DNA of 60,380 bases, counting the filler, from Sanchytrium tribonematis (lineage: Eukaryota): NCBI GenBank assembly GCA_018985235.1. It is 6 parts of 6 records of this genome, joined end to end, with 100 filler letters (N's around TTAATTAATTAA, not from the genome) between each part and the next. Parts side by side here need not be neighbours in the genome. Positions count along the whole stretch, not along the records: positions 1 to 10,011 come from JADGIG010000311.1; 5 more parts are not named here. One strand, 5' to 3'. This document shows, piece by piece, positions 1 through 60,380 of the stretch. The translations under genes were made by a program, and so were the position numbers. The number at the start of each line of letters is the position of its first letter. Positions within the stretch are counted from its first letter, which is position 1. The notes below the pieces were generated by a model, which made no database searches, was not told the origin of the DNA, and worked only from the letters and a program-made list of their open reading frames with translations.

Positions 1-1
1 A

Positions 2-268
2 CGATTGAAAGAAAGACATGCTCGAAATCCCGGCATCATGCAAAGAATCGAGCACGAGCAATGGGTTTTAGAGTATGATAACGAAAGAGACGAACTGAAT
101 CGATCTATACAGCGCAAATTCAATGGCAGCTCACAATTGTCCGAGGAAGAAATGATAAATCTTGCGATGCAATTATCTCTTGATCATCAAGACCAATCCG
201 AAGCCAGGCAAAATCTGGAAGATGCAGCTATAATAGAAGCTGTTCATTCGTCAATGAACAATAAATAA
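2..268 (+). CDS. 3' end of a protein with two C-terminal UIM-like motifs (possibly F-box/WD40 Pof10-like); 5'-truncated by contig start
   Basis: Open frame from the contig edge; LSEEEMINLAMQLSLD and LEDAAIIEAVHSSM match the ubiquitin-interacting motif pattern (acidic-x-L-x-x-A-x-x-x-S). Confidence 0.6.
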   Translation, partial: RLKERHARNPGIMQRIEHEQWVLEYDNERDELNRSIQRKFNGSSQLSEEEMINLAMQLSLDHQDQSEARQNLEDAAIIEAVHSSMNNK

Positions 269-300
269 CTTATCATGCGAATAAAGTTAGAATGAGAATT
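172..300 (+). repeat. Direct repeat, copy 1 (3' end of the UIM gene plus poly(A) region)
   Basis: 194-278 aligns ungapped with 2167-2251 with 9 mismatches in 85 nt; similarity extends with small indels to ~172 and ~300. Confidence 0.95.
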
Positions 301-320
301 TAAATGAAACTAAAATTATA

Positions 321-2132
321 CTACACTAGGGCTATTTGCTTCAATTCCACCTCAAATAATTCTTTGAATCCCTCTTTTCCAACAAAGTTGAACTCTATAA
401 TGTTGCCTGGACTCCATTCAAATTGACCTAACCCTGCTGCGTCATCATGTAATCCCTTGCTAGTAATCAAGGTCAAAGATCTCACATTAAACACAACATC
501 TTTAAAAACTTCACCAAGACTCTTTTCAAACTTTAAATATCCAGACTTTGCATTGTCAACAATCAACATCAACGTATTCCTTGACTTCTTCCCTGTCTTT
601 CCCAATTTAAAGGTCTTCCCATATTCTCCTATCTTGATTTGAAAAAGGTGAATTGAATTGTCCCTCATTATTAGCAATCCATCAACGCCTGTCTCTTTTG
701 TAAAATAAAGAATCTTGTCAAATGAATAATCAAATATGAATTTTACACCATCAACTTTTGAACTAGGGTCAAAACTCAAGATACCATCAAAGACAGAATA
801 CTCTGAATACTCACTTAGATTAATAATGCGCTTTCTGATCTCTTCCTCGATTTTATGACCTAACGTATCAGAACCACCCCACTTCATCAATACACCTTGC
901 AAGCACATTAATAAATACTTGTCGGGGTGCTCTTCGTGAATAGCATCCAGTAAATCATAATACACAGGCATCAGAAACTCGAATGCCTGATTTTCATTAA
1001 CAATTAATAAGTCTTCATCACAAGCCTCCAGTAATGTACTGTAAGGATGAGGGAACAAATGGGATGGTAATTCATAAATCTGAATGGATTTCTGTGACCA
1101 AATTCGATCCTTGTTGTCTTTATTTTTCAAGAATAAAAGTCTAATAATAAAAGCCATTTGCTTATCTGTATCAATCCATCTTAATAGCTCATCACGGATT
1201 GTTTTTTCATTGTAAGTACCTCTGTACACATCCAACATCCTACCACCGACACCACCAGTACAATTCATATAATTGTCCAATTCAGCCAGTGATATATTGC
1301 GATCAGTTAAAAATCTGGTGAGTTCTTCTCTATTTCTCATTGGAGGAATGACTACCTCTTTATAACACTCGCGATTAAGGTCTGAAAATCCACCATGGTC
1401 ATATTTAATTGATTTTAAATTAGACTCTTGATATGCCAATGCTTTGGTAGCTGCACTTGAACCAGATATGATACCAAGTGACAAGACAGATTTACCAACT
1501 GCTAGTAGCTCACGAATCACTTTAATGTTTAGATCTTGTGTATTGCTTTTGACTTCGTAGAGCGACTGAAATTCGTCTCCGAATACAATCAATGTCTTAT
1601 TTTGATTCTGGCACCATGCAGATACATTAGTATCTGTAAAATCACCTATAGTCATTGGATTCAATACACTAGAAATTAATGTAGGCTGATGTGAAAAATC
1701 AATAAATATGACATATGTGAACTCTGAGCAGAAACCCTGAATAAACAACTTTAATCCTTTCATCAACAAAGTCTTTCCAACACTCTTACACCCTGTAATC
1801 ATCTTATTGCAACTTCTACCAAGTGGAGCGTTTTTATTCATATCATAAAGATTCATTTGACCTGATCTAATTAACAAAGTCATAACATCCTGGATTATCT
1901 CTTCTACAATTGAGGTCTTAAATAAAGAATGGATTAACACAGGTTCAATGACAACGGGCCATACCTTACGGAAGAAATCTACTAAAATAGATTTATCCAT
2001 CTTAAATGGGTCGCAAATTTTGATCAATTCATTCCATTCTAATCGAAGATCATCTAAAGTGATCTTTTTATCCACTTTCTTTGGCTGAGAGTTTTGGGTT
2101 TGCTTTTCTGAAAGATCATGTTTGTAACCCAT
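321..2132 (-). CDS. Crinkler/RHS-type P-loop NTPase + PD-(D/E)xK (REase-fold) protein, 603 aa, no recognisable N-terminal header domain
   Basis: Walker A GCKSVGKT, Walker B LIVFGDEFQ, sensor ISGSS, TGG motif; C-terminal G-x-x-I-E ... TGVDG ... FQIK nuclease-like signature. Confidence 0.75.
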   Translation of the reverse strand: MGYKHDLSEKQTQNSQPKKVDKKITLDDLRLEWNELIKICDPFKMDKSILVDFFRKVWPVVIEPVLIHSLFKTSIVEEIIQDVMTLLIRSGQMNLYDMNKNAPLGRSCNKMITGCKSVGKTLLMKGLKLFIQGFCSEFTYVIFIDFSHQPTLISSVLNPMTIGDFTDTNVSAWCQNQNKTLIVFGDEFQSLYEVKSNTQDLNIKVIRELLAVGKSVLSLGIISGSSAATKALAYQESNLKSIKYDHGGFSDLNRECYKEVVIPPMRNREELTRFLTDRNISLAELDNYMNCTGGVGGRMLDVYRGTYNEKTIRDELLRWIDTDKQMAFIIRLLFLKNKDNKDRIWSQKSIQIYELPSHLFPHPYSTLLEACDEDLLIVNENQAFEFLMPVYYDLLDAIHEEHPDKYLLMCLQGVLMKWGGSDTLGHKIEEEIRKRIINLSEYSEYSVFDGILSFDPSSKVDGVKFIFDYSFDKILYFTKETGVDGLLIMRDNSIHLFQIKIGEYGKTFKLGKTGKKSRNTLMLIVDNAKSGYLKFEKSLGEVFKDVVFNVRSLTLITSKGLHDDAAGLGQFEWSPGNIIEFNFVGKEGFKELFEVELKQIALV

Positions 2133-2146
2133 GTTTTAATAAACTT

Positions 2147-2266
2147 ATTATTTTTGATCATAAGCCCAATCCGAAGCCAGGTAAAACTTGGAAGATGGAG
2201 CTATATTAGAAGCTATTCATTCGCCAATGACCAATAAATAATTTATCATGCCAATCAATGAAAATT
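2147..2266 (+). repeat. Direct repeat, copy 2 (degenerate, frameshifted copy of the UIM gene end)
   Basis: Same alignment as copy 1; has 1-nt deletions (gatcat-aag) and no upstream coding continuation. Confidence 0.95.
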
Positions 2267-2314
2267 CTTTTTACTGTGAAACAATTTAAATTTATTGTAA
2301 CACACAAATAAAAA

Positions 2315-3860
2315 ATGACAAATCAATGTACAAATTGCAGCTCAGAAAATATTTTAAATGATCAGCAACTAGGGCATTTAGTGTGTGAAGATTGTGGTCA
2401 TGTTATCAGCGAAAATCAAATTGTCAGTGAAATACAATTTGTTGAATCAGGCAATACTGCCAGAGCAGTCGGTGCCACTATTAATGAGACTAATTCATCT
2501 ACACAGCAATCATCTTTAAACCATGCAAAGCGAACTATCAGTCAGATTGGATACCCATTGAACTTGCCAGACTCAATTATCGAAACTGCTCATAGATATT
2601 ACAAATTAGCACTTATAAACAAGCAAACTATGGGTAGAAGACATATCGATGTCTGCTGTGCTTGTATTTATATCGCATGTAGACTTAATGAAACCCCAAT
2701 CCTATTAATTGATTTGAGCGACATTACCAAATCATCTGTCTTCTCTTTAGGATCTATTTTCATGAGCTTATTAAAAGCTTTTAATTTAAAAGTCCCAATT
2801 ATGGATCCGGCTTTATATATCTCTCGGTTTACTGCCATGCTCAATTTAGGCGAAAACACCTCCGCTGTTGCTAGAGATGCTGTAAAATTGGTACAACGAT
2901 TTAGTAGAGACTGGATACAGACCGGTAGACGTCCTAATGGTATTTGTGGTGCTGCTTTGGTAATTTTTATTTATATAGTTAATTGCTGCTCGAATGAATG
3001 GAATTGAACTTCCTACTCACGACATTGAAAGATTGGTCAAAATTAGCGCCAGCACTATTAATAAGCGGTTGCTAGAGTTTAGTAGTACAGAATCTGCTTC
3101 TCTATCAGGTAACACTTTTCAAGTAGAATTAGTCAGCAAAGAGGAGGAGCCACCATCTTTTAAGAAAAATCGGGATGTCGAGAAAAATGAAAAAATGGTA
3201 TCTGAACTCAATATAACTCAGCAAAAAAAGCTCATGGAAATTATTGTTAATGAACTTGATGATGATGACTTTGCAGAAGAAATTCAACTCAGCATTGATG
3301 ACATGGTTTCATTAGAATATGATTCTGTCTCACTTAACGCACCAACAGCAGCAACTGACGAAGGCAAAAACTTAAGTGACTTAGAGGATGATCCTGTTGT
3401 GAATGAAATGATACTTTCAAAGGAGGCAGCTGAAATCAAAAAAATGATTTGGCACAAAGAATACGAAGAAGATTTGAAAGAAATGGCTGCTAGAAACAAA
3501 AGACCTCCCCAAGCAACCAGAAAGAAAAAACCAAAGGAAAACTTTAAGAGTGTTAGTGAAGCAATTAAAAAGAAGGTTGCCCCAAAATTATCGAAAAAAT
3601 TGAATTACGAATTGATGCAAGTGTTAGATACATCAGATGCACGAACCCGGACAACTTTGCCACCTCTTGATCCTACTGCTGATGAAAACAAAAGTATAAT
3701 TACTTTGTCATCGTACAAGACAAATAAGACTGGATTTACTCAAGCTACTCACTTAACTCGCGCATCCCTATTTTCTACAAGATCCTCTCAATTCAAATTT
3801 CAAAGGCTAAAGGTGTCTTACGCACCAGATGACTTCAATGCTTATGACGAATACGATTAG
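2315..3860 (+). CDS. BRF1: TFIIIB subunit Brf1, 508 aa; exons 2315-2959 and 2979-3860
   Basis: Zn ribbon CTNC..CEDC, cyclin folds, WIQTGRRPNGICGAAL|LIAARMNG restored by removing a 19-nt intron, C-terminal TBP-binding block LSDLEDD..ILS..IW. Confidence 0.95.
2960..2978 (+). other. 19-nt spliceosomal intron (phase 0)
   Basis: GTAATTTTTATTTATATAG; removal fuses ORFs 2315.. and 2994.. in frame. Confidence 0.95.
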
Positions 3861-3961: not shown

Positions 3962-6308
3962 TTATTTTACTACTGCGTTGTTCAGCTTCATTTGTATCGT
4001 TCTCAAGGCGTAGTAGTTCGGGAAGGTTTTAAATCTCTGTTCCATTTGATAGAATTCCGTTATAGTCATGCTCTTTTCATCATTTGACTTGAATTCAACC
4101 GTTCGGCAATATTCTTCAAAAACGTTGGCCATTTCCGTTAAAGATGCAGACATTACAACGTGAGTCACTTGATCCGTAGTGTATTTGGATAATACCCTAT
4201 GCAATAATTCAGTTTCCTTAATGAAAGACAATATTGGCTCTGAAAATGCAAAATCTGGTGTTTCCTGTACATAGAGAACATTTTGGTATTTTGTTTTTAA
4301 TTCCTGTATTCTTTTTGATATTTCAATTTTCTAAATAAATCAACATTACTTTAAATGCACCCAAGTAGTATAATGTTCGTTCTTTAATAATATGAACTAA
4401 TTTTAATTCTATTTCCTTTTGATGGTCTTTTACCACATTAGCCAGTTTTTGGACCTCTTCATTCATGAATGAGATTTTGTCTTCTGGAATTTTATTAGTA
4501 AAAAATCCAATTATAAAGGGGGAAAGAGCAACGATGACTTCAACGCTCTGCCAACTTAAACAAAGATGTTTTGCAGTAATGCTTTTAAGCCCCGCTGTTT
4601 TTGCGGCACCTCCGCCGAGCACACTTTGGCATACCAAAGAATTGAAGTTTCTTAAAAACTCCATAACTTTGAAAAATGAGTCCCAGGTGATGTCATTGCA
4701 GCTTTTTGCGAAAGACAAATAGCTGTATAGGAATTTTATAAGATATAACACAACGCCGACAATTGGGTAACTTTTTCCGAGAATTACAAGCTTTTCCTTC
4801 GGGGACTGATCTGACTCATCTGATATCAAATTTTCATTTTCTATTTTTTTCAAAAGCATCATGAATTCTCCAGGGACATCTACCGATCCCCATTGCTCAT
4901 TCTGTATTAAGCTAGTAATATCGCTAGAGTTTTTGTTATGGAATATTAAGAGTCTCTGCCTCAAAGAAGTAATAAACCATGCTTGAAATATATTGAGAAT
5001 AGTGATGCTGTTTGGTTTCTCTGCGGATATCCACTTGCCGGATGTGAGTGAAAAATCATTTGTTTGCAAGTATTGAAGCAAAGATATGAGCTTCTTGCAG
5101 CCATCGTAGATATCCATCAAGGTTTCAAACTCAACTACCTCAAATATACTTTTTTGTTGTCCTTCCACAGGAATTAGCAATTTTTGAGTCAAATTCTTGA
5201 TTACATCAGATATTACAAATAACGTTTGATCTTTCGATTTGAAAAGCATATATTGTGAAAAAAGTACAATTACTGCACTAGAAGTCCGCTTAATTAAATC
5301 CTTGGCAGATGTTGCAGAATCCGATGACAAATTAATTCCTAGTAGGGTCCAATCACCATCTTCAAATGCCTTAAGTACTTTAATTTTATATTCTTCCAAA
5401 ATGTTGTCAATCATACCACTACTCTCAAAAGTATTCCAAAATTTGTTCAGGGTTGGAAGAGAGTAATTTGGAGATAATATTGACGGATATTCAAAGTTTG
5501 AAACTAAATTTGGAAAGTTGGGTCGGATTCCAAAGATTTGAGCCAGTCCTTCTTTACAAATGCCGTCATTGTAATTTTTTTCAAGCATTTCCAAATGCTT
5601 CCACATATGTTGTGTGGCAGGAAAACGAGGAAGTTTTAACTCTAACTGATGTATAATATCATGAGCCGCAAAATAATCTTTACTTTCGAGTAATTGAGTG
5701 GTCAATTCTAATAGTTCTTCGCATTCTTTGATATCTTTTATCATGGATTTAAACTTTTTTAATAATTCAACATTTTCTTTAGTCTGTATCACTTTAAACG
5801 CAGAATCGCAAGACTTTTTGATTTTTTCCAAAGTCAGCTTGTGAGACAAAAGTTCATCATCAATAACTTTAAAGGTTGTTTGCAAATCAGACATTGATTT
5901 TGATATGGTATATAACTCTTCGGACTTCTCAGAGATGACATGGATAAGCTTGTTTTCTACATTTGATTGATATTGCTTTAATTTTTCAAGAATGTTTGGA
6001 GCATTTGCTGATAAAACTCTCAAATCATCAACTTTAATATCCATTAGACGCAATAAACTATTAAAATCTCTTGATTTTTCAAGTTCTAAGCTTTCAAATA
6101 ATTTTGGAATTTCGTCACTAGTTACACTAAGTGCACTCTTCTTCAGCTTCAAGATTCTGTATTGATCATATTCCTGAGTGATATATTTGATATAAGGATT
6201 TAAATTTGGGGGCTTAACTGGCCCGCCTTTTGGCTGAGTTGCTGCAAGTTCTTCTCTAGTAGGTTGATTTAGGACTGATGAAATAGTTATGTATTTTTGA
6301 GGCAACAT
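3962..6308 (-). CDS. VPS54: GARP complex subunit Vps54, 775 aa; exons 6308-4350 and 4330-3962
   Basis: ISSVLNQP N-terminal motif; FNSLVCQSVLGGGAAKTAGLKSITAKHLCL Vps54 signature; the two ORFs join in frame through a 19-nt intron. Confidence 0.92.
4331..4349 (-). other. 19-nt spliceosomal intron (phase 0)
   Basis: GTAATGTTGATTTATTTAG on the minus strand; removal gives AFK|KIEISKRIQ.. in frame with the 4231 ORF. Confidence 0.9.
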
Positions 6309-8898: not shown

Positions 8899-10011
8899 AT
8901 GCATTCTATACCGCCAATATTACTAACCGATTCCTATAAACTGGCTCATTTTGAGCAGTATCCAGATTGCAACAAGATGGTGGCATACGGAGAATTTCGG
9001 AAACCATTGAGCGATGGAGACCATCGAATTGTATTTTATGGCATTCGATATCTTCTCACTTTGGTTACTAAAAAATGGACTTTGAACGATGTTGAAAAAT
9101 CTGAATCATTTTTAAAAACGCATTATAATGGAAAACCGTACCCGTTTCCAAAGCAATTATTTCTTGACTTTATTGAAGAACATGATGGACACTTTCCAGT
9201 TCAAATTGAATGTTTGGATGAAGGAACTATTATCTATCCCCATGTTCCTGTTTACCAAATTATTGCTTATGGAAAATATTCAAAGTTAGTTACGTATCTG
9301 GAAACCATTTTGACCATGATTTGGTACCCTTCAAATGTTGCAACAATATCGCGACACACTAAATCTATCATTGAAAAGTATTATGAGCAAACTGTAGATC
9401 AAGACGGTTTTTGGTCCTTGGATTCACGCTTACACGATTTTGGTTACCGTGGTTGCACCTCTGTTGAACAAAGTGTCATTGGCGGAGCTGCTCATTTGCT
9501 TAATTTTACCGGTACTGATACATTGTCGGCAGCCTACCACGTACAATATAATTTAAATAATGGAAAACCTGTAGGATATTCAATTCCTGCGACTGAGCAT
9601 TCTGTTATGACTGCTTGGAATACTGAAAAAGAAGCCATCTCAAACATGATCAACAGGTATGGAGATGGAGTGTATGCATGTGTAATGGATAGCTATAGCT
9701 ACATGAAAGCTTTAACCGATGTTCTTCCTAGTATTTATCAGGAGAAAATAGGGAAAGGCGGATTTCTGGTTTTAAGGCCAGATAGTGGTGATCCTGTCGA
9801 AACAGTCTTACAAGCCTTAAGATCCGCTGAGCGTGTATTTGGCTGCAGTTTTAATCAAAAAGGTTACAAAGTAATTAATGGATGTGGTGTGATTCAAGGC
9901 GATGGAATCAATAAGGACACGGTCCAAAAAATACTCGAAGCAGCAGAAAAGGAAAAATACAGCGCAATGAATATCGCATTTGGGATGGGAGGTGGTTTGT
10001 TACAAAAGCAT
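8899..10011 (+). CDS. NAMPT: Nicotinamide phosphoribosyltransferase; 3'-truncated at contig end
   Basis: LLTDSYKLAH, LHDFGYRG, SIPATEHS, LRPDSGDP, IQGDGI, FGMGGGLLQK. Confidence 0.93.
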
Positions 10012-19112: not shown

Positions 19113-20101
19113 ATGTCTTCGCAAATTGAAACGGATCTTTTAACTTTAACCAGATGTGTCATTAACAATCAAAAGCTGCACTCAGAAGCTAAGGGAGATC
19201 TCACCTTACTGTTAATGTCCATTCAATTGGCTTGCAAAATGATTGCATCTGCCGTGCGAAAAGCTGGTATCATTCACTTGACTGGACTAGCAGGAAATCA
19301 GAATGTCCAAGGTGAAGACCAAAAGAAATTGGACGTAATCGCCAATGAGTTGTTTATAAATGCCTTAAAATCTTGTGGAAAAGTCAAATTGATGGTTTCT
19401 GAAGAAAATGATGATCCAATTATTTCGGAAACTGATGCTCCTTACGCAGTGTGCTTCGATCCCTTAGATGGTTCTTCAAATATAGATGCTGGCGTCAATG
19501 TGGGGTCCATTTTTTCTATTTTTAAAATTAAGGATCAAAAAAATCCCTTAAAATCGGTCTTAAATAAGGGTGACCAGATGGTTTGTGCTGGCTACTGTAT
19601 GTATGGAATGTCTACAGAAATGGTTATTTGGACAGGGGACGATTTGGTCCAAGGATTTACGTTAGATCCGACTGTTGGAGAATTTTTATTGACACGACCT
19701 TCTATTAGAATACCTTCTCGCGGGAAAATTTACTCCGTCAATGAAGGAAACTACAATAACTGGTTTGAATATTGCCAAATTTACTTCAACAGTGTTAAAC
19801 AGGGAAAAATTACTGCTAAAGGTGATGGCTGTACGAACGACAAAGTGTATTCGCTGCGTTATGTTGGAAGCATGGTTGCAGATGTACACAGAACGTTACT
19901 TTATGGTGGAATTTTCGCATATCCTAAAGACATTAAATCCAAAGGAAAACTAAGAGTTTTGTATGAAGTATTTCCGATGTCAATCTTGGTTGAAAAAGCT
20001 GGTGGATATTCTTATAACGAAGGAACAAGGGTATTTAATTTTTAATCAAGGTTTTAGATATGGCACCGGAGACTATACATGAACGATGTGGGATTGTTTT
20101 G
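19113..20101 (+). CDS. FBP1: Fructose-1,6-bisphosphatase; exons 19113-20030 and 20051-end; 3'-truncated
   Basis: GEDQKKLDV, VSEE, FDPLDGSSNID, RYVGSMVADVHRTL, GKLRVLYE; TR|VLDMAPETIHER restored by a 20-nt intron. Confidence 0.97.
20031..20050 (+). other. 20-nt spliceosomal intron (phase 0)
   Basis: GTATTTAATTTTTAATCAAG; contains an in-frame TAA; removal restores RVLD..P..IHER. Confidence 0.93.
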
Positions 20102-36397: not shown

Positions 36398-37060
36398 ATG
36401 TCCGAAGAATGCAAATTTGGTGACTGTATTGAGACATTCGGTACAATGGAAGAGCTTGTCAAACATCTTGAAGAACATGTATCGGAATTAACAGATTTTG
36501 GCTGTCAATGGAGAGATTGCAAGAATAAAAAGGGTAAGAAAATGACTAATATGCAATCTTTGATAACCCATTTGCGTACACATACGGGTGAAAAACCCTT
36601 TATATGCCCTCTTCCTGAATGTATCCAAAGATTTAGTAGAAGAGATGCAATCTTGAAGCACTGCCAAACTGCCCATCCTGAGTATGACACGCGCAGCAAA
36701 AATGTAAAATATTTTAAAGAAACTGATTTGTCAAATGGGTATATGTTTAAACTCGATGGGAAAATACCTTATAAACCACCAACCTCTCAAAAGTCTCATA
36801 AAGGTCAGTCACTTTCTGCACCGTTAGAGATGGAAGATGATCTTGTCATGGAAGTTAGCGAATCAACTGAATGGCACAAACTCTCAGATTATGAAAAATT
36901 GGAAGTTTTACAAAAGCGTATTTTATTTCTACAAGAAGACAACAAATTACTCAGAGACGTGTATCAAATTGAGCAGCTTTTGTTCAAAAGACTTAAGCTC
37001 ACCAACGATATATTAAGAGAAAAAGCCTTTGGCAACTTACTTGCTGATGAAGACAAATAA
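36398..37060 (+). CDS. C2H2 zinc-finger protein (three GLI/ZIC-like fingers) with a C-terminal coiled coil
   Basis: CKFGDC..HLEEH, CQWRDC..HLRTH, TGEKPF linker, CPLPEC..HCQTAH. Confidence 0.85.
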   Translation: MSEECKFGDCIETFGTMEELVKHLEEHVSELTDFGCQWRDCKNKKGKKMTNMQSLITHLRTHTGEKPFICPLPECIQRFSRRDAILKHCQTAHPEYDTRSKNVKYFKETDLSNGYMFKLDGKIPYKPPTSQKSHKGQSLSAPLEMEDDLVMEVSESTEWHKLSDYEKLEVLQKRILFLQEDNKLLRDVYQIEQLLFKRLKLTNDILREKAFGNLLADEDK

Positions 37061-37176
37061 ATTTATTCAAATTTAGGCCACTTAAGTTTGGAAATGAAAT
37101 TCGAATCTTTTGAGACAAATAAATTTATTCAAATTTAGGCCACTTAAGTTTGGAAATGAAATTCGAATCTTTTGAG
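37051..37176 (+). repeat. Perfect 62-nt tandem duplication
   Basis: 37051-37112 = 37113-37174 (agacaaataaatttattcaaatttaggccacttaagtttggaaatgaaattcgaatcttttg). Confidence 0.97.
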
Positions 37177-40750: not shown

Positions 40751-41474
40751 ATGCAAGTATGTTTTCAAAAGGAGGGTTTAAAGCTTAGCTAGCACAGAGT
40801 TATTTGCTAATATTATGTATGGAAAAGATACGTTTTCAATTGGCTAGCTTGATCCTCTTTCACTAAATTTTTACTAACGTAGACAATTAAATGTGTTGTT
40901 GTTGGCGATGGTGCCGTTGGTAAAACTTGTCTTCTTATTTCATATACAACTAACAAATTTCCACAGGAGTATGTTCCAACTGTTTTTGACAATTACGCGG
41001 TAACCGTTATGGTTGGCGATGAGCCATATACACTAGGATTATTTGATACCGCTGGTCAGGAAGATTATGATAGGCTACGACCACTAAGTTACCCCCAAAC
41101 AGATGTATTTTTAATTTGCTTTTCAGTTGTAAATCCATCATCTTTTGAAAATGTTAAAGAAAAATGGCACCCCGAAGTTAATCATCATTGCCCAGGGGTA
41201 CCTTGTCTCTTGGTAGGTACACAAGTTGATCTTAGGGATGACGCAGCTACAGTCGATAAATTGGGAAAGCAAAAGCTAAAACCAATTTCGAATGAACAAG
41301 GCCTTAAACTCTCCCACGATTTATCATTGATTAAATATGTAGAATGCAGTGCGTTAACACAGCAAGGACTCAAGAATGTTTTTGATGAAGGTACAATTTT
41401 ATAATATAGCAATTGTGGCTGCATTATCACCGGCAAAATCTAAGAAAGAGAAAAAGAAGTGCGTTATTATTTAG
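40751..41474 (+). CDS. CDC42: Rho-family GTPase Cdc42, 192 aa; exons 40751-40756, 40883-41390, 41410-41474
   Basis: [65 protein letters not shown] CaaX. Confidence 0.98.
40757..40882 (+). other. 126-nt intron containing a long hairpin
   Basis: GTATGT 5' site; TACTAAC branch sequence directly followed by GTAG; arms 40769-40792 and 40840-40860 pair. Confidence 0.95.
41391..41409 (+). other. 19-nt spliceosomal intron (phase 1)
   Basis: GTACAATTTTATAATATAG; removal restores FDEAI and the CaaX tail. Confidence 0.97.
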
Positions 41475-51157: not shown

Positions 51158-51199
51158 TGTCAACAATATGGAAAATGCAGCACCAGATGATGCTTTGAC
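51158..51199 (+). repeat. Start of 5' LTR
   Basis: tgtcaacaatatggaaaatgcagcac.agatga.g.tttgac repeated at 54827-54868 (3 C/T differences in 42 nt); begins TG. Confidence 0.75.
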
Positions 51200-54100
51200 C
51201 CAACAAACAGGAACTGAAACAAACCCACACCAACTACCACCCCCTATCAACTTAAGGTACCGTCCAAAACACCAATGAGCTGTTAGTCCAGCTAGTCACG
51301 CGGTTAAGGGCATACTAGGTACCAGAGCATCTGCTGGATTCCGAATTGAGCCGAATCAGTAAGGCACTTTTGGTGGAATTACAACATCCAAGCTTGTATT
51401 TGGTGGTGCAGACCCCATGGATGTAGATAAGTTCGATTATGCTGCTATTCCTAAGAATTTTGTGGAGAAAAATTTATTTACACAAGATTCTAGCAGTTCT
51501 ATGGGCATCACAAAACCTAAAAAATTTATTCAGGGTTATGAGCAAATGATTATCCATTATGGTGGTGGTGCGGAACACTTTTTAAAATTTTGGAGATCCT
51601 TAGAATTGTTTACAAGGCCATTGTAATTCCAATTTTAGGCTCATATGAAGAACGCTGGGAAGAAATGAAACAAAGACTTTTAAGGCTACCCTTAGTGTAG
51701 AGTATAAATAAATTTAGAACGCCAGTTTCAAACGCGGGTTCAGATGAAGAAAGAATCCGAAACATTTTATGCGGGGTTTGGCTTTGGGAAGAGAACTCAC
51801 TGAGATGGATGCGTTATTATGAGTATTCCCCAAATAGTTAAACGATTTGCGTTTGGAATTCGTGACAAACGCATCAGAAATAAAGTTTTAGAGAGTGAGT
51901 CAGCTGATCTAGCTGTTGCTATTAAAATTGCTCATAAAAAAGAAGAGCAAATATGTATTATTATAATCAGGTTCTGTAACCACAGGTCAAACAACAACAA
52001 TTTCGAGCAAGTAAAAAAACAGACTCACATCAAATTAAACAAATTACGCAAAACCCAAATGCAGTCCAAACTAGATTACCTGATGGATCTCTTGTAACAG
52101 GATATTGTCGTTTTTGCAAACTTCCTGGTCATTGGAAGAAAGATTGCCCAAAATTATTAGCTAAGACTGAATTGAATACAATGATTAAATCTAAGTCAGG
52201 CTATTCACTAATTTTTGTAACAGGTTATGTTGCAAATAGAGCCCATCGTATTTTAGTGGATACCGGTGCATCGACAAATTATCTATATTTGTCAGTTTTA
52301 GAGAATACAAGCGCAGCACTGTAAGATTTAAAAGAAAAGTTCACGGTCAAATTACCCAATGGATCTCAAGTCAAGATCATAGGCAAGGTGGTATTACCAG
52401 TCCGGCTTCAAGACATTGATTACAATATTGAATTTTTGATTTTGAATTCATCGAGTCAGAAAATCATTGTTGGAAACAGTTTTATGAAGCAAGTCGGTGC
52501 TATTATTGATTACAAGAAAAAGCTTATTTCATTTGAGGTGGGTGCGGTCTCATTAAAATTTGCAAATTCTGAGAAAGAATTCTCAAACATACAACAAAAC
52601 AACTTTGGCTCAAAGGCTGTTAAAGAAGAGCATTTTCCAAGTAATTGGGAATCTGAAACGGATCTTAAGATTATTACACATGATGAAGTCTATTAAGACG
52701 ACTTTGATAGAAATCAGGCTGATATAAATCCTGATTTGCCAAAAGAAGAACAAAAACAGATTTAAACAACCATATTTGTACCCTCTTCCTCAGGCACATG
52801 AAGCAGCCGCCCTTAAGCAGGTCGAAAATATGTAAGATATGGGAATATTAGTTGAGAGCGATTTTCATATCTCACATCTCATTTCGCTAGTTCCGAAGGT
52901 GAGGGCTGACAATCTCTTGACTGTCTATTACTCGGCATTTATAACAAATTATAGTCATTTAGCAAGTCCTTTGACAAGAGCAACTCGTAAAGATTATGTG
53001 CCTTTTCAGTGGACAAAGGAATTGGATACGGCTTTCAAGATCTTAAAGTCCAGTATTGCTAAGGAACTTGTCTTGGTTCAGCCACAAGTTGACATCGATC
53101 TTGAGCTTTTGTCGATGCTAGTGGGCTTGCTGCTGGTTTTATTTTAATGCAAAACGGCCATGTGATCGAGTTTGGTTCTAAAAAATATAATGAGTTAGAA
53201 CAAAAATATAAATCTTTGCTTTGGCTGTACTGCTTGGCCTCGAACATTACAAATACTATTTGCTAGGTCGACACGTGACTGTGTACTCAGATATGACCAG
53301 CCTTAGATGGTTGTTTTCGAACACTCAAATTGGTCGACTTGGTCGTTGGTGTTTACGCATGGCAATATTTGATTTTAGCATCACCAAAAATCCTGCCGAT
53401 ATCTTTAGTAGAAATTTTACTCTTGATTCACATTTGGGGGAGGGAACACAGCATTTGGTCAGTACAATTGTTACCCGATCCGCAATGTCCTCGAATTTAA
53501 CAGAAAACACCGGTTCAAATCCTGGTCCTAACTCAAATTTAGTTAGAGATTTATCAATTATTCTCCAATCGTATGGGACTTTACCTAGAATCAATGGCAA
53601 GATTGCGTTAAATGATCAGCAATTTCAATTATTATTTAACCAGATCCATACACTGGTTGGCCATAGTCGTGTAATAAAGCAGTTTCTTTTGAAATCATTC
53701 TTTGTACCAAATCTACGGAAGGAAGTTCAAAAAAATTTGAGCCAATGTGATATTTGCAGAAAGGCACGACAGCCACAATTGCCTAAAAATGTGGAATTAA
53801 TGATATTCCCGTCTTGTTCCATAGTTGGGGAGCAAATTTTCCCGGATTTAAAGGTGATGCCTAGAGAATTTACGGTCGATGAATATAAGGTCATCTTGGT
53901 CATTGTTCACCAACATAGCCGTTATACATGGCTTAAGGTGCTTGAGTCATTTACGGCTTCTGAATTAGTCAGAGTATTTGATGAATGGTTGCAATCCAGT
54001 ACCATCTGGATTCAAGAGTTACGGTTTGATGCAGGAACAAATTTTGTAAGTAAAGTCTTCACAGAATGGTTGCATAGAAAGGGTGCGCAACGGATAGAAC

Positions 54101-54816
54101 CGGTGCCCAGATCACATCAGACAATCGGATTAGTGGAACGACAGATACAAGAAGTGAACAGATATTTCAGACGCCATCCACATTATCTTAATATATGGTG
54201 GACAAGAGTACATATTATTGCACAAATTTTGAATTTGACGCCACGTAAATCTTTAAATTGGAATTCTCCACTAGAAGTTTTACAGACGTCACTCGATAAC
54301 TCACTCAACGTGATTGAAATTGTGGACACTAACACAATTTTAGGAAGTTTTATATCTTAGATGAGACATCAGAATTTGGAATTGACAAAATCGAGGTCTT
54401 TGAGTAATTTAGTTATGAATATGTTTGGTGTTGGTTCCTTTGTTAATTTGTTGGATTATATCAAGGCTGAAAATAAGCATACTAGCTTATTGCGATGAAA
54501 TGTATGTTGTTTTGCAAGTTACACCAGATAGTAGCTGAGTCTTATTAGGAAAGATAAATTTTGAAAATGGTCAAATTGTGGAGTCGCATACAGTGACATA
54601 CAAAGAATTATAGCCGTTACCAACGATCTCAGGTAAAGCAGATAACTCAAAATGCGTCAGTTCGGCCAATTAATATTTTAGGATTAATGGCTTTACAACA
54701 ATGTGAGATGAGGGATAGTTTTAAGTCAATAGGAGCCAATCAATCAAATCTACAGAAAAAGATATTAAAGATGATTGAAACTGCTAATCAGATTAGCAAC
54801 ATATCAGAAAGCCGCA

Positions 54817-59161: not shown

Positions 59162-60380
59162 GGCCTGTACGGGATTCGATCCAGTATATTTTGTTTGAAG
59201 GGGAAGGATAATTGTTAATGAAGCCAGATTGAATCCTGACCGATCCGTGCGTCATGATCCGGTCATGATCCGATCACACGGATCACAAGCGGGGATCCAC
59301 ATGGTTACGCACGGATCGGAATTTACCCTCTATAAAGAGCCCATTCCCCAAAATAAAGTACATTAACAACTCAAAGTAGTATTTATTATTATCACACCCT
59401 TCAACTAAATCCAATAACCCATTCCTATTTCCATCGACCGATCCAATGTAAATAATCCAAAGGTATGAGAGTTATTCTTATGTTGTAAGTCAGAACTAAC
59501 AAATTCTGCCGCTTGAATAATTCCAATTATCCCTTTGGTGTTGTCTTTAATAGACTGATTTACATTGGATAGTTTATTGAATCCTTTAAAATTTTGTTAT
59601 TAAAGGTAATTCATATTGTAAAGCGGTCCATTGATACATATAAGGTTTTAAAAGAATACCAAGAGAATATATACGAATTGGACTTGATGATTTATTTGTA
59701 TAGAATGGGACATGGAATAGGGTATAGAATCATTTCAGGATTCTTCCGAGCACATCAATCTTTTGTTAAAGTGGTTCAAGTTTTAGTGAAATGCTACAAT
59801 CAATTTATTCACTATCCTACTGAGCGTGAAATTTCAGGGATTGTCGAGCAATTTAGTTTTAAAACTAATCGTTATGATGTTATTGGAGCTATGGATGGCA
59901 CTTTACTACGAATTGAGAGACCCAAACTTTTTTCAAATGCTTATTATTGTCGTAAAGGCTTCTTTGCTTTGCATATGCTAGCTGTATGCGATTGGAGGTA
60001 TAAATTTTGGTATGTACAAGTAGGTGATGTAGGAAACACTCATGATTCAATAGCATTTATGGGATCTAATTTATACGATGACATTTCTAACGGCAATTGT
60101 AGATTAAATTTCAATGGAATTGCCCATAAAATTCTTTGCGATAGTGCTTTTAGAAGAATGCCATTTTTAATTAAAACCAATGCTACTGACTTCCATCGAC
60201 GAAGATTTTTACATGAGTATAGAGAATTTAGCATTAAATCAGGAAGGACTTGCATTGAGTGTATTTTTGGTATTTTAACAAACAGATTCTTGTATTTTCA
60301 ATCTCGAATTCGTGAAGACACAGAAAAGATTAAATGGGTGGTTATGTCAGCATGTATTGTTCATAATTTTCTAATTGATA
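59161..60380 (+). mobile_element. PIF/Harbinger DNA transposon (left end plus DDE transposase, truncated by window end)
   Basis: Frame open 59573-60380: IGAMDGT, YYCRKGFFAL, AVCD, GNTHDS, LCDSAF, RTCIECIFGILTNRF, ACIVHNF; in-frame TAG at 59570; GC-rich left end GGGCCTGTACGGG and GATCC-rich subterminal region. Confidence 0.9.

What the first reader, a model, noticed from the sequence alone, without database searches (positions are those of the whole stretch)
172..2266. Header-less Crinkler-type NTPase-nuclease gene between ~110-125-nt direct repeats of host sequence: candidate minimal mobile element
Seen: the 603-aa ORF (321-2132, minus) is flanked by two copies of the neighbouring gene's 3' end and poly(A) region. 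The core 194-278 vs 2167-2251 has 9 mismatches in 85 nt. The left copy is the intact coding end; the right copy is frameshifted. The unique insert (~301-2146) is almost only the ORF, with 14 nt before the ATG and ~20 nt after the stop. I see no TIR, LTR, poly(A) tail or intron. The protein has Walker A/B motifs and a C-terminal E..D..QxK nuclease-like motif, but no secretion or ubiquitin-like header. Known: CR (Crinkler/RHS) NTPase+REase modules have been proposed to derive from prokaryotic transposable elements. Inference: this is the footprint of a self-mobilising NTPase-REase unit that makes very long target-site duplications. A long duplication regenerates the host gene end and lets the unit insert harmlessly in a genome with almost no intergenic DNA. 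The ORF is intact although the repeats have diverged ~10%, which suggests selection or domestication.
Basis: partly seen in the sequence, partly recalled or inferred. Interest (0 to 1): 0.82.

Follow-up and report, generated by a model that had tools for sequence, protein, structure and literature searches.

The report
Wandering nuclease gene with duplication scar
In a tightly packed genome of a single-celled eukaryote, one gene for an ATPase with a predicted DNA-cutting domain sits between two 114-base copies of its neighbour's end, likely the scar of a single old insertion of a gene that probably moves between species, and we found no sign that its family makes such repeats as a rule.

Summary
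The repeat is real: 172-285 and 2147-2258 match at 87% over 114 columns, and one contig spans the locus. The right copy has decayed like neutral DNA while the 603-aa ORF stayed open. The protein is a STAND/AAA+-type ATPase with a C-terminal E..D..QxK motif conserved across an unannotated family of 123 clusters, mostly without a header; the nuclease fold itself was not confirmed by a fold search. Its nearest relative is 85% identical although 17 of 17 neighbouring host proteins have no relative at 90% and BRF1 none above 41%, which points to lateral movement. Best reading: a one-off, repair-mediated insertion that survived because the duplication keeps both the host gene end and the DNA upstream of BRF1. 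The layout copies that of yeast WHO homing elements, so a homing element with a new kind of enzyme remains open (about 0.2).

The parts
2..268 (+). 3' end of the upstream host gene (two UIM-like helices; gene begins before the window)
   Evidence: open frame to TAA; Pfam UIM E 0.019, below cut-off
172..285 (+). left repeat copy: last 97 coding nt including the stop, plus 17 nt, of the host gene; intact
286..320 (.). 35-nt spacer between left repeat and the stop of the inserted ORF; no poly(A) relic, no TIR
321..2132 (-). 603-aa ATPase-nuclease ORF, intronless, GC and codon use like host genes
933..2057 (-). residues ~26-400: helical N-part, STAND/AAA+-type ATPase and following helical/winged-helix region
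   Evidence: AlphaFold2 pLDDT 91.9; best matches 2qen Z 14.0, TnsC 7mbw Z 13.7, 2fna Z 13.5; Foldseek 2qen E 2e-8
1770..1793 (-). Walker A (residues 114-121)
   Evidence: G114 67/67, G119 68/68, K120 67/68 rows
1572..1577 (-). Walker B acidic pair D186-E187
   Evidence: D 69/71, E 67/71 rows
324..920 (-). residues ~405-603: predicted PD-(D/E)xK (REase-type) nuclease domain with E429, D484, Q498-x-K500
   Evidence: E 53/67, D 59/64, Q 58/64, K 53/63 rows; quartet intact in 44 of 63; helix-three strands-helix-strand order in the model; fold not searched on its own
716..728 (-). polymorphic site: the X1 contig is 12 nt longer here and carries an in-frame stop before the D..QxK residues; P0002 also has four more residues here, without a stop
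   Evidence: translation of the variant done by hand from the tool's table
2133..2146 (.). 14-nt leader, the only unique DNA upstream of the ATG
2147..2258 (+). right repeat copy, decayed (two 1-nt gaps, one nonsense, six replacement and two silent changes in the 75-nt coding core); lies in the 182 nt shared by the two divergent ATGs, so likely promoter DNA
2315..3860 (+). BRF1 (TFIIB-related), with a 19-nt intron at 2960-2978; ATG 73 nt after the pseudo-stop of the right copy
   Evidence: Pfam TFIIB E 3e-30 and zinc ribbon
37051..37176 (+). control: perfect 62-nt tandem duplication over a stop codon, intergenic spacer and next ATG, with no insert

Best explanation
A single-copy gene for a STAND-type ATPase with a predicted restriction-type nuclease domain, likely acquired from another organism, was likely copied once into a DNA break between the upstream gene and BRF1 by host repair, which duplicated 114 bases of the target. 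Shown: the repeat, its neutral-looking decay on the right, the open ORF, the ATPase fold, the conserved E..D..QxK motif, a single copy in the run's contigs. Inferred: the empty site had about 73 nt between the host stop and the BRF1 ATG, so BRF1's promoter probably overlapped the host gene's coding end; only an insertion that duplicates this stretch leaves both genes working, which makes a long duplication a survival filter rather than proof of a special transposase. The gene brought no promoter (14 nt) and would be transcribed from the duplicated, divergent BRF1 upstream region. It was then kept by selection, most likely as an ATP-gated nuclease in a genetic conflict (selfish or anti-invader). 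The enzyme may have made the break itself; that step is untested.
For: Repeat and decay: 2 silent of 9 changes against 1.8 expected under neutrality. ORF kept: at 0.12 changes per site 0 of 2000 simulated copies stay free of stops, at 0.06 0.15% do. Lateral movement: P0002 is 85% and P0003 64% identical, but 17 of 17 host proteins found in the collection (20 asked) are alone in their 90% cluster and BRF1 has no relative above 41% among 139 candidates; homologue P0031 is 39% GC in flanks of 17% and 28%. One-off: 1 contig laid at 80% among 81,121 records, no loose ends, no joint; 3 proteins in all by word search; 0 of 3 testable homologous loci have a flanking direct repeat. Background: a 62-nt junction duplication without insert in the same window; intergenic gaps of 30-182 nt in the first 10 kb. 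Turnover: 4 of 7 metagenome loci (two are the same sequence) are broken by stops, frameshifts or a deletion, 2 are open, 1 is cut by the contig end.
Against: The insert is almost exactly one ORF (14 nt and 35 nt of unique flank), which is neater than random capture would usually be. The three tested homologues are only ~24-26% identical, and old repeats decay (L004 has only 90 nt upstream). The DNA around the two close homologues could not be read, so their hosts and flanks are unknown; a partly assembled close relative could explain P0002 without lateral transfer. GC and codon use of the ORF are host-like. The X1 contig carries an allele with an in-frame stop, so selection on the full protein is not absolute. 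The whole genome was not available, so paralogues under 80% DNA identity are not excluded; short unplaced fragments at 51-59% exist.
Confidence: 0.5

Rival explanations
1. WHO-like homing element: the unit is the nuclease gene plus a resistant 3' end of the host gene; the enzyme cuts empty alleles near the left edge of the repeat and the decayed right copy serves as the second homology arm for gene conversion.
For: Same layout as yeast WHO elements (host 3' end, nuclease gene in either orientation, decayed 3' fragment; PMC7282813 sections 10, 12, 13) and as fungal mitochondrial mORF hybrid genes (PMC3630166 passages). It accounts in one stroke for single copy, open ORF beside a decaying fragment, lateral movement, a null allele and many broken homologues. 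Both gaps of the right copy lie in its first 17 nt, a weak hint of cutting and repair there.
Against: The two copies do not differ as two coding alleles would: 2 silent of 9 changes, P 0.003 / 0.04 / 0.13 if both had evolved at dN/dS 0.1 / 0.2 / 0.3. With identical copies at insertion every site of the empty allele would persist in the filled allele. No cluster of elements, no empty allele among the contigs, no duplication at 3 homologous loci. No long-site recognition domain is evident.
Confidence: 0.2
2. One reading: an autonomous one-gene transposon whose ATPase-nuclease nicks the target about 110 nt apart and makes long, variable target-site duplications at every insertion.
For: Direct repeats hug the ORF; ATPase part resembles TnsC among others (Z 13.7); long variable duplications (8-514 bp) are known for IS1549/IS1634 (PMC2266710 passages); NTPase+REase modules are linked to mobile elements (PMC5289972 section 11; PMC11342252 passages).
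Against: Single copy; no element ends for a transposase to recognise; 0 of 3 homologous loci with direct repeats; TnsC is tied with archaeal ATPases, ORC/Cdc6 and NLR proteins; no strand-transfer domain.
Confidence: 0.12
3. Two separate events: a spontaneous tandem duplication of the gene junction came first, and the ATPase-nuclease gene later landed (or was moved from elsewhere in the genome) between the two copies, the only safe place.
For: A perfect 62-nt junction duplication without insert exists at 37051-37176; host-like GC and codon use.
Against: Needs two rare events at one spot; the insert lies exactly at the copy boundary.
Confidence: 0.13
4. Assembly or amplification artefact.
For: Depth is uneven between neighbouring contigs (71.7 vs 123.7) and only one run holds the locus.
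Against: The copies differ by 13% with a nonsense change and gaps; a second assembly spans both junctions in one contig with one difference in 9,765 nt.
Confidence: 0.03

Closest known systems
CR (Crinkler-RHS-type) NTPase+HTH+REase proteins (Zhang et al. 2016, seen only through PMC5289972 section 11 and passages of PMC11342252 and PMC6131194)
   Same: P-loop NTPase followed by helical region and a nuclease-type motif; found in varied microbial eukaryotes; ESM Atlas neighbours include clusters with Crinkler (45% of members) and RHSP (14%) families.
   Different: No Crinkler or RHS Pfam match among the families shown for the protein and its relatives (top 25 of 36, 92, 104); no ubiquitin-like header, and 42 of 50 full-length relatives have the Walker A within 140 residues of the start; single copy, not an expanded effector family; clade assignment untested.
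WHO elements of Torulaspora/Lachancea (PMC7282813; bioRxiv 10.64898/2026.08.13.744650, abstract only)
   Same: Nuclear free-standing nuclease gene between an intact host 3' end and a decayed copy of that end; WHO10 insertions at new genes also duplicate the host 3' end.
   Different: Enzyme is ATPase + PD-(D/E)xK-type motif, not LAGLIDADG + zinc finger; host gene is not FBA1; duplicated part is 114 nt; copies diverged neutrally; no cluster; homing not shown.
Mobile endonuclease ORFs with duplicated C-termini in fungal mitochondria (Allomyces atp6, Glomus atp6/atp9/cox2/nad3; PMC3630166 passages)
   Same: Host C-terminus duplicated around a mobile nuclease ORF.
   Different: Nuclear here; different enzyme; no sign that the left copy is foreign.
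IS1634/IS1549 insertion sequences (PMC2266710 passages)
   Same: Long, variable direct repeats of target DNA (8-514 bp).
   Different: Those encode IS4-like transposases and occur in several copies; here no such transposase, no TIR, one copy.
Archaeal STAND-type ATPases PAB2304 (2qen) and SSO1545 (2fna); Tn7 TnsC (7mbw)
   Same: Best structural matches of residues ~30-400 (Z 13.5-14).
   Different: 10-17% identity; they cover the ATPase part only; a shared fold shows no function.

Membership tests
CR (Crinkler-RHS) proteins | P-loop NTPase domain followed by helical/HTH region | tested here: met
   Model pLDDT 91.9, STAND/AAA+ matches; AAA_14 in 37 of 77 members
CR (Crinkler-RHS) proteins | C-terminal REase (PD-(D/E)xK) fold with catalytic residues | tested here: inconclusive
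   E/D/QxK conserved, intact in 44 of 63, fitting strand order; fold searches covered residues 8-411 only; no Pfam or PDB sequence match for the C-part
CR (Crinkler-RHS) proteins | N-terminal ubiquitin-like (LxLFLAK) header | tested here: not met
   N-terminus is 25 low-confidence residues then three helices; same start in P0002 and P0003; only 182 nt to the next ATG; no Pfam Crinkler match
CR (Crinkler-RHS) proteins | Alternative alpha-helical header | tested here: inconclusive
   Helices 26-96 exist, but ATPase structures align from residue 30-65 on, so they may belong to the ATPase
CR (Crinkler-RHS) proteins | Belongs to a numbered CR-NTPase / CR-REase clade | not testable with these tools
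   Primary paper and its profiles not held
WHO homing elements | Layout: intact host 3' end - nuclease gene - decayed 3' fragment | tested here: met
WHO homing elements | LAGLIDADG + zinc-finger endonuclease at FBA1 | tested here: not met
WHO homing elements | Incoming 3' end is a diverged, still-coding allele | tested here: inconclusive
   2 silent of 9 changes fits neutral decay; P 0.003-0.13 under coding constraint; no outgroup allele
WHO homing elements | Allele-specific cleavage and gene conversion | not testable with these tools
   needs an assay and population data
Long-DR insertion sequences (IS1634/IS1549) | IS4-like DDE transposase and terminal inverted repeats | tested here: not met
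Long-DR insertion sequences (IS1634/IS1549) | Several copies, each with its own direct repeat | tested here: not met
   one copy at 80% or more; 0 of 3 distant loci; paralogues under 80% not excluded
Retrocopy by target-primed reverse transcription | Poly(A) tail at the 3' end inside the duplication | tested here: not met
   286-320 holds no T-run on the + strand

The most novel reading that the evidence does not exclude
A nuclear homing or self-inserting element built from a single STAND-ATPase/PD-(D/E)xK nuclease gene: it cuts at the 3' end of a host gene, is copied in with a ~110-nt duplication that rebuilds the gene end and doubles as its promoter and homology arm, jumps between unrelated microbial eukaryotes and decays after fixation. 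It would be a WHO-like element with an enzyme class not known for homing, and a direct trace of the mobile ancestor proposed for Crinkler/RHS effectors, with a family of over 120 clusters behind it.
Probability: 0.2. Interest if true: 0.85.

Novelty: new variant of a known kind. Interest (0 to 1): 0.5.

Why it matters
The claim that Crinkler-type NTPase+REase modules come from mobile elements rests on domain and neighbourhood arguments; an insertion scar around a bare module, plus a close homologue in what seems to be an unrelated host, is the kind of locus on which mobility can be tested directly (empty site, cleavage assay). It also defines an unannotated, header-less ATPase-nuclease family of microbial eukaryotes with a high-confidence model. 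If the scar is a one-off repair product, the interest is moderate: an example of how genes enter genomes that have almost no intergenic DNA.

Tried and rejected
Whole genome not held, so no genome-wide tblastn. Close-relative loci: none in metagenome contigs with A1 or in viral contigs; L001 is a phage replicative-helicase-like false hit (my reading of the sequence) and L009 an archaeal P-loop hit over the Walker A only, so no prokaryotic or phage member was found; plasmids and phages gave no tblastn match. Indirect synteny test: no BRF1 or neighbour homologue on contigs of the lengths that carry P0002/P0003. First model from 3 sequences failed (pLDDT 31). NCBIfam, PADLOC, PHROGs gave nothing firm. 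The one member with PDDEXK_9 (P0135) matches only in the ATPase and its C-part does not match the family's C-terminal profile, so it is no evidence for the nuclease fold. A second-look fold search never ran. No RNA holder listed. Rejected: alternative genetic code (genes end in TAA, TAG and TGA); hidden upstream header exon (no room; same start in homologues); extension of the repeat beyond 172-285; TIRs; poly(A). A weak inverted match around L002 (score 42 vs 40 in shuffles) is T/A-run sequence and was not counted. Literature searches listed no paper on NTPase-REase genes with long flanking duplications; the library lacks most subscription papers and the primary CR paper, whose text and supplements may bear on this.

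Full report
Observation. The window is a 35% GC, gene-dense eukaryotic sequence with intergenic gaps of 30-182 nt in the first 10 kb and introns of 19-20 nt. The organism was not identified. The finding's anatomy is as described. Positions 172-285 and 2147-2258 align over 114 columns at 86.8% (E 1e-30), far beyond shuffles (149 vs at most 32 in 1000). The left copy is the coding end of the upstream gene, the right copy has two 1-nt gaps and a nonsense change. Between them lie 35 nt, the 603-aa ORF on the minus strand, and 14 nt. There is no TIR and no poly(A) relic. One contig of run X1 spans both junctions and differs from the window at one site in 9,765 nt; X1 may be the source sample.

Age and selection. 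In the 75-nt coding core the copies differ at 9 sites: 2 silent, 6 replacement, 1 nonsense; 1.8 silent are expected under neutrality, and so few silent changes are unlikely if both copies had been coding (P 0.003, 0.04, 0.13 at dN/dS 0.1, 0.2, 0.3). So the copies were probably identical at first and the right one decayed by about 0.12 per site. An unconstrained ORF of this length would have gained about 10 stops in that time (0 of 2000 simulations stop-free), so the ORF was kept by selection (inference). Against a simple picture, the X1 contig has a 12-nt longer allele near 720 with an in-frame stop ahead of the D..QxK residues (translated by hand), at the place where P0002 has four more residues. 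A retained bubble at 9736-9853 shows that the sample is polymorphic. Two alleles, one open and one truncated, are the simplest reading; raw reads were not available.

The protein. Pfam gives only a weak AAA_14 match. Word searches found three proteins: itself, P0002 (85%) and P0003 (64%, 404 aa). A profile search of 1.84 billion representatives found 123 clusters at E 0.001 or better. Of 50 Met-started members of 540 aa or more, 42 have the Walker A within 140 residues of the start: the family is header-less by nature; P0084 has a longer N-terminal extension that may be a header (not tested). With 77 of these sequences AlphaFold2 gave pLDDT 91.9, pTM 0.91. Residues ~30-400 match archaeal STAND-type ATPases (2qen Z 14.0, rmsd 5.2, 276 aligned; 2fna Z 13.5), TnsC (Z 13.7, rmsd 4.7, 254 aligned), NLRs and ORC/Cdc6; the best viral match is an uncharacterised Sylvanvirus protein over 495 columns (E 1e-12). 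The C-terminal domain was not covered by these searches. Its nuclease reading rests on conservation of E429 (53/67), D484 (59/64), Q498 (58/64), K500 (53/63) (quartet intact in 44 of 63), on the helix-three strands-helix-strand order of the model, which fits the PD-(D/E)xK core as I recall it, and on Atlas neighbours carrying Hjc (10%), Mrr_cat (13%), Crinkler (45%) and RHSP (14%) (leads only). Atlas neighbours of the first three ranks are all or nearly all eukaryotic; no prokaryotic, phage or plasmid member was found.

Is it mobile? Within the genome, not now: 1 of 81,121 records of X1 lays on 1-3200 at 80%, with no loose ends and no joint that would mark an empty site (contigs drop rare variants and a filter omits some). 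Between genomes, probably: P0002 is 85% identical, yet 17 of 17 host proteins of the window that are in the collection (20 asked; among them eIF2-alpha-, EF-Tu-, tRNA-ligase- and FBPase-like proteins, named from my reading of their sequences) are alone in their 90% clusters, and the best BRF1 relatives are 31-41% identical. A nuclease gene better conserved than housekeeping genes points to lateral transfer or to carriage on another replicon; a partly assembled close relative is the remaining loophole. Homologue P0031 in L002 is 39% GC in 17% and 28% flanks, again like a newcomer.

Does the family make long duplications? A scan with family motifs gave 7 metagenome loci. Two have open ORFs (L002, L004), four are broken (L003, L005 = L006, L008), one is cut by the contig end (L007). 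Three have both flanks: L002 (400/600 nt tested), L004 (90/600), L003 (320/146). None has a direct repeat above shuffles (150, 118 and 58 of 200 shuffles as good), whereas the window scores 149 vs at most 33. These are distant (~25%) and may be old, so the test is weak but negative. The window itself shows that such duplications arise without this gene: a perfect 62-nt tandem duplication over a stop, spacer and ATG at 37051-37176.

Mechanism. Removing the insert and one copy leaves 73 nt between the host stop and the BRF1 ATG. BRF1's promoter then likely overlapped the host coding end, and only an insertion that duplicates this stretch spares both genes. I therefore read the repeat as the scar of one repair-mediated insertion (staggered or resected break, gap filling on both sides), filtered by survival, of a gene that travels laterally and turns over fast (0.5). 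The gene has no promoter of its own and would use the divergent BRF1 upstream region. Whether its own nuclease made the break is untested. Rivals: WHO-like homing (0.2), which has the same layout (PMC7282813 sections 10, 12, 13 read) and would explain single copy, lateral movement and decay, but lacks the recoded incoming end; a general long-duplication transposon (0.12), for which IS1549/IS1634 give precedent (PMC2266710 passages) but copy number, ends and homologue flanks give no support; duplication and insertion as separate events (0.13); artefact (0.03).

Comparison and novelty. The protein works like a CR-type NTPase+REase module (PMC5289972 section 11; PMC11342252 and PMC6131194 passages; the primary paper was not held) but fails the ubiquitin-like header test and could not be placed in a CR clade. 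The locus looks like a WHO element or a mitochondrial mORF hybrid gene (PMC3630166 passages) but has another enzyme, so it is a member of neither. PMC12957317 (abstract and outline only) describes a different Crinkler-like selfish gene that moves with adjacent transposons. Seven searches listed no report of an NTPase-REase gene inside a long host duplication. Verdict: real feature, new variant of a known kind, interest 0.5; the homing/self-insertion reading has probability 0.2 and would merit 0.85.

Noticed in passing
window 2960-2978 (BRF1), also about 20031-20050, 41391-41409 and 32640: Very small GT-AG introns of 19-20 nt; removing the BRF1 one restores a continuous frame.
   Followed up: partly
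window 37051-37176: Perfect 62-nt tandem duplication covering a stop codon, the spacer and the next start codon.
   Followed up: partly
window 716-728 vs X1 contig: Two alleles of the ORF: the contig's is 12 nt longer and has an in-frame stop; the two differ nowhere else in the gene.
   Followed up: partly
window 53293-54360 and 59687-60379: Integrase (rve, H2C2) ORF of an LTR-type element with a 49-nt direct repeat at 51158/54827, and a DDE_Tnp_4 (Harbinger-like) ORF: the genome has ordinary transposons.
   Followed up: no
window 9736-9853: Allelic bubble in X1 with 4 differences in 118 nt at depths 88.5 and 38.7.
   Followed up: no
L004 2199-2537: 339-nt element with long inverted arms and short internal repeats (MITE-like) downstream of a family member whose nuclease motif is degenerate.
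   Followed up: no
L002 446-505 / 2528-2586 and 284-375 / 4186-4277: Weak AT-rich inverted matches around the family gene; probably low-complexity, not excluded as decayed ends.
   Followed up: partly
BFVD A0A3G5AH84 and A0A3G5AHI5 (Sylvanvirus): Giant-virus proteins are the best whole-length structural matches of the model; a possible carrier between hosts.
   Followed up: no
protein P0084: Family member with about 120 extra N-terminal residues that look like a beta-rich header; no Pfam match.
   Followed up: partly
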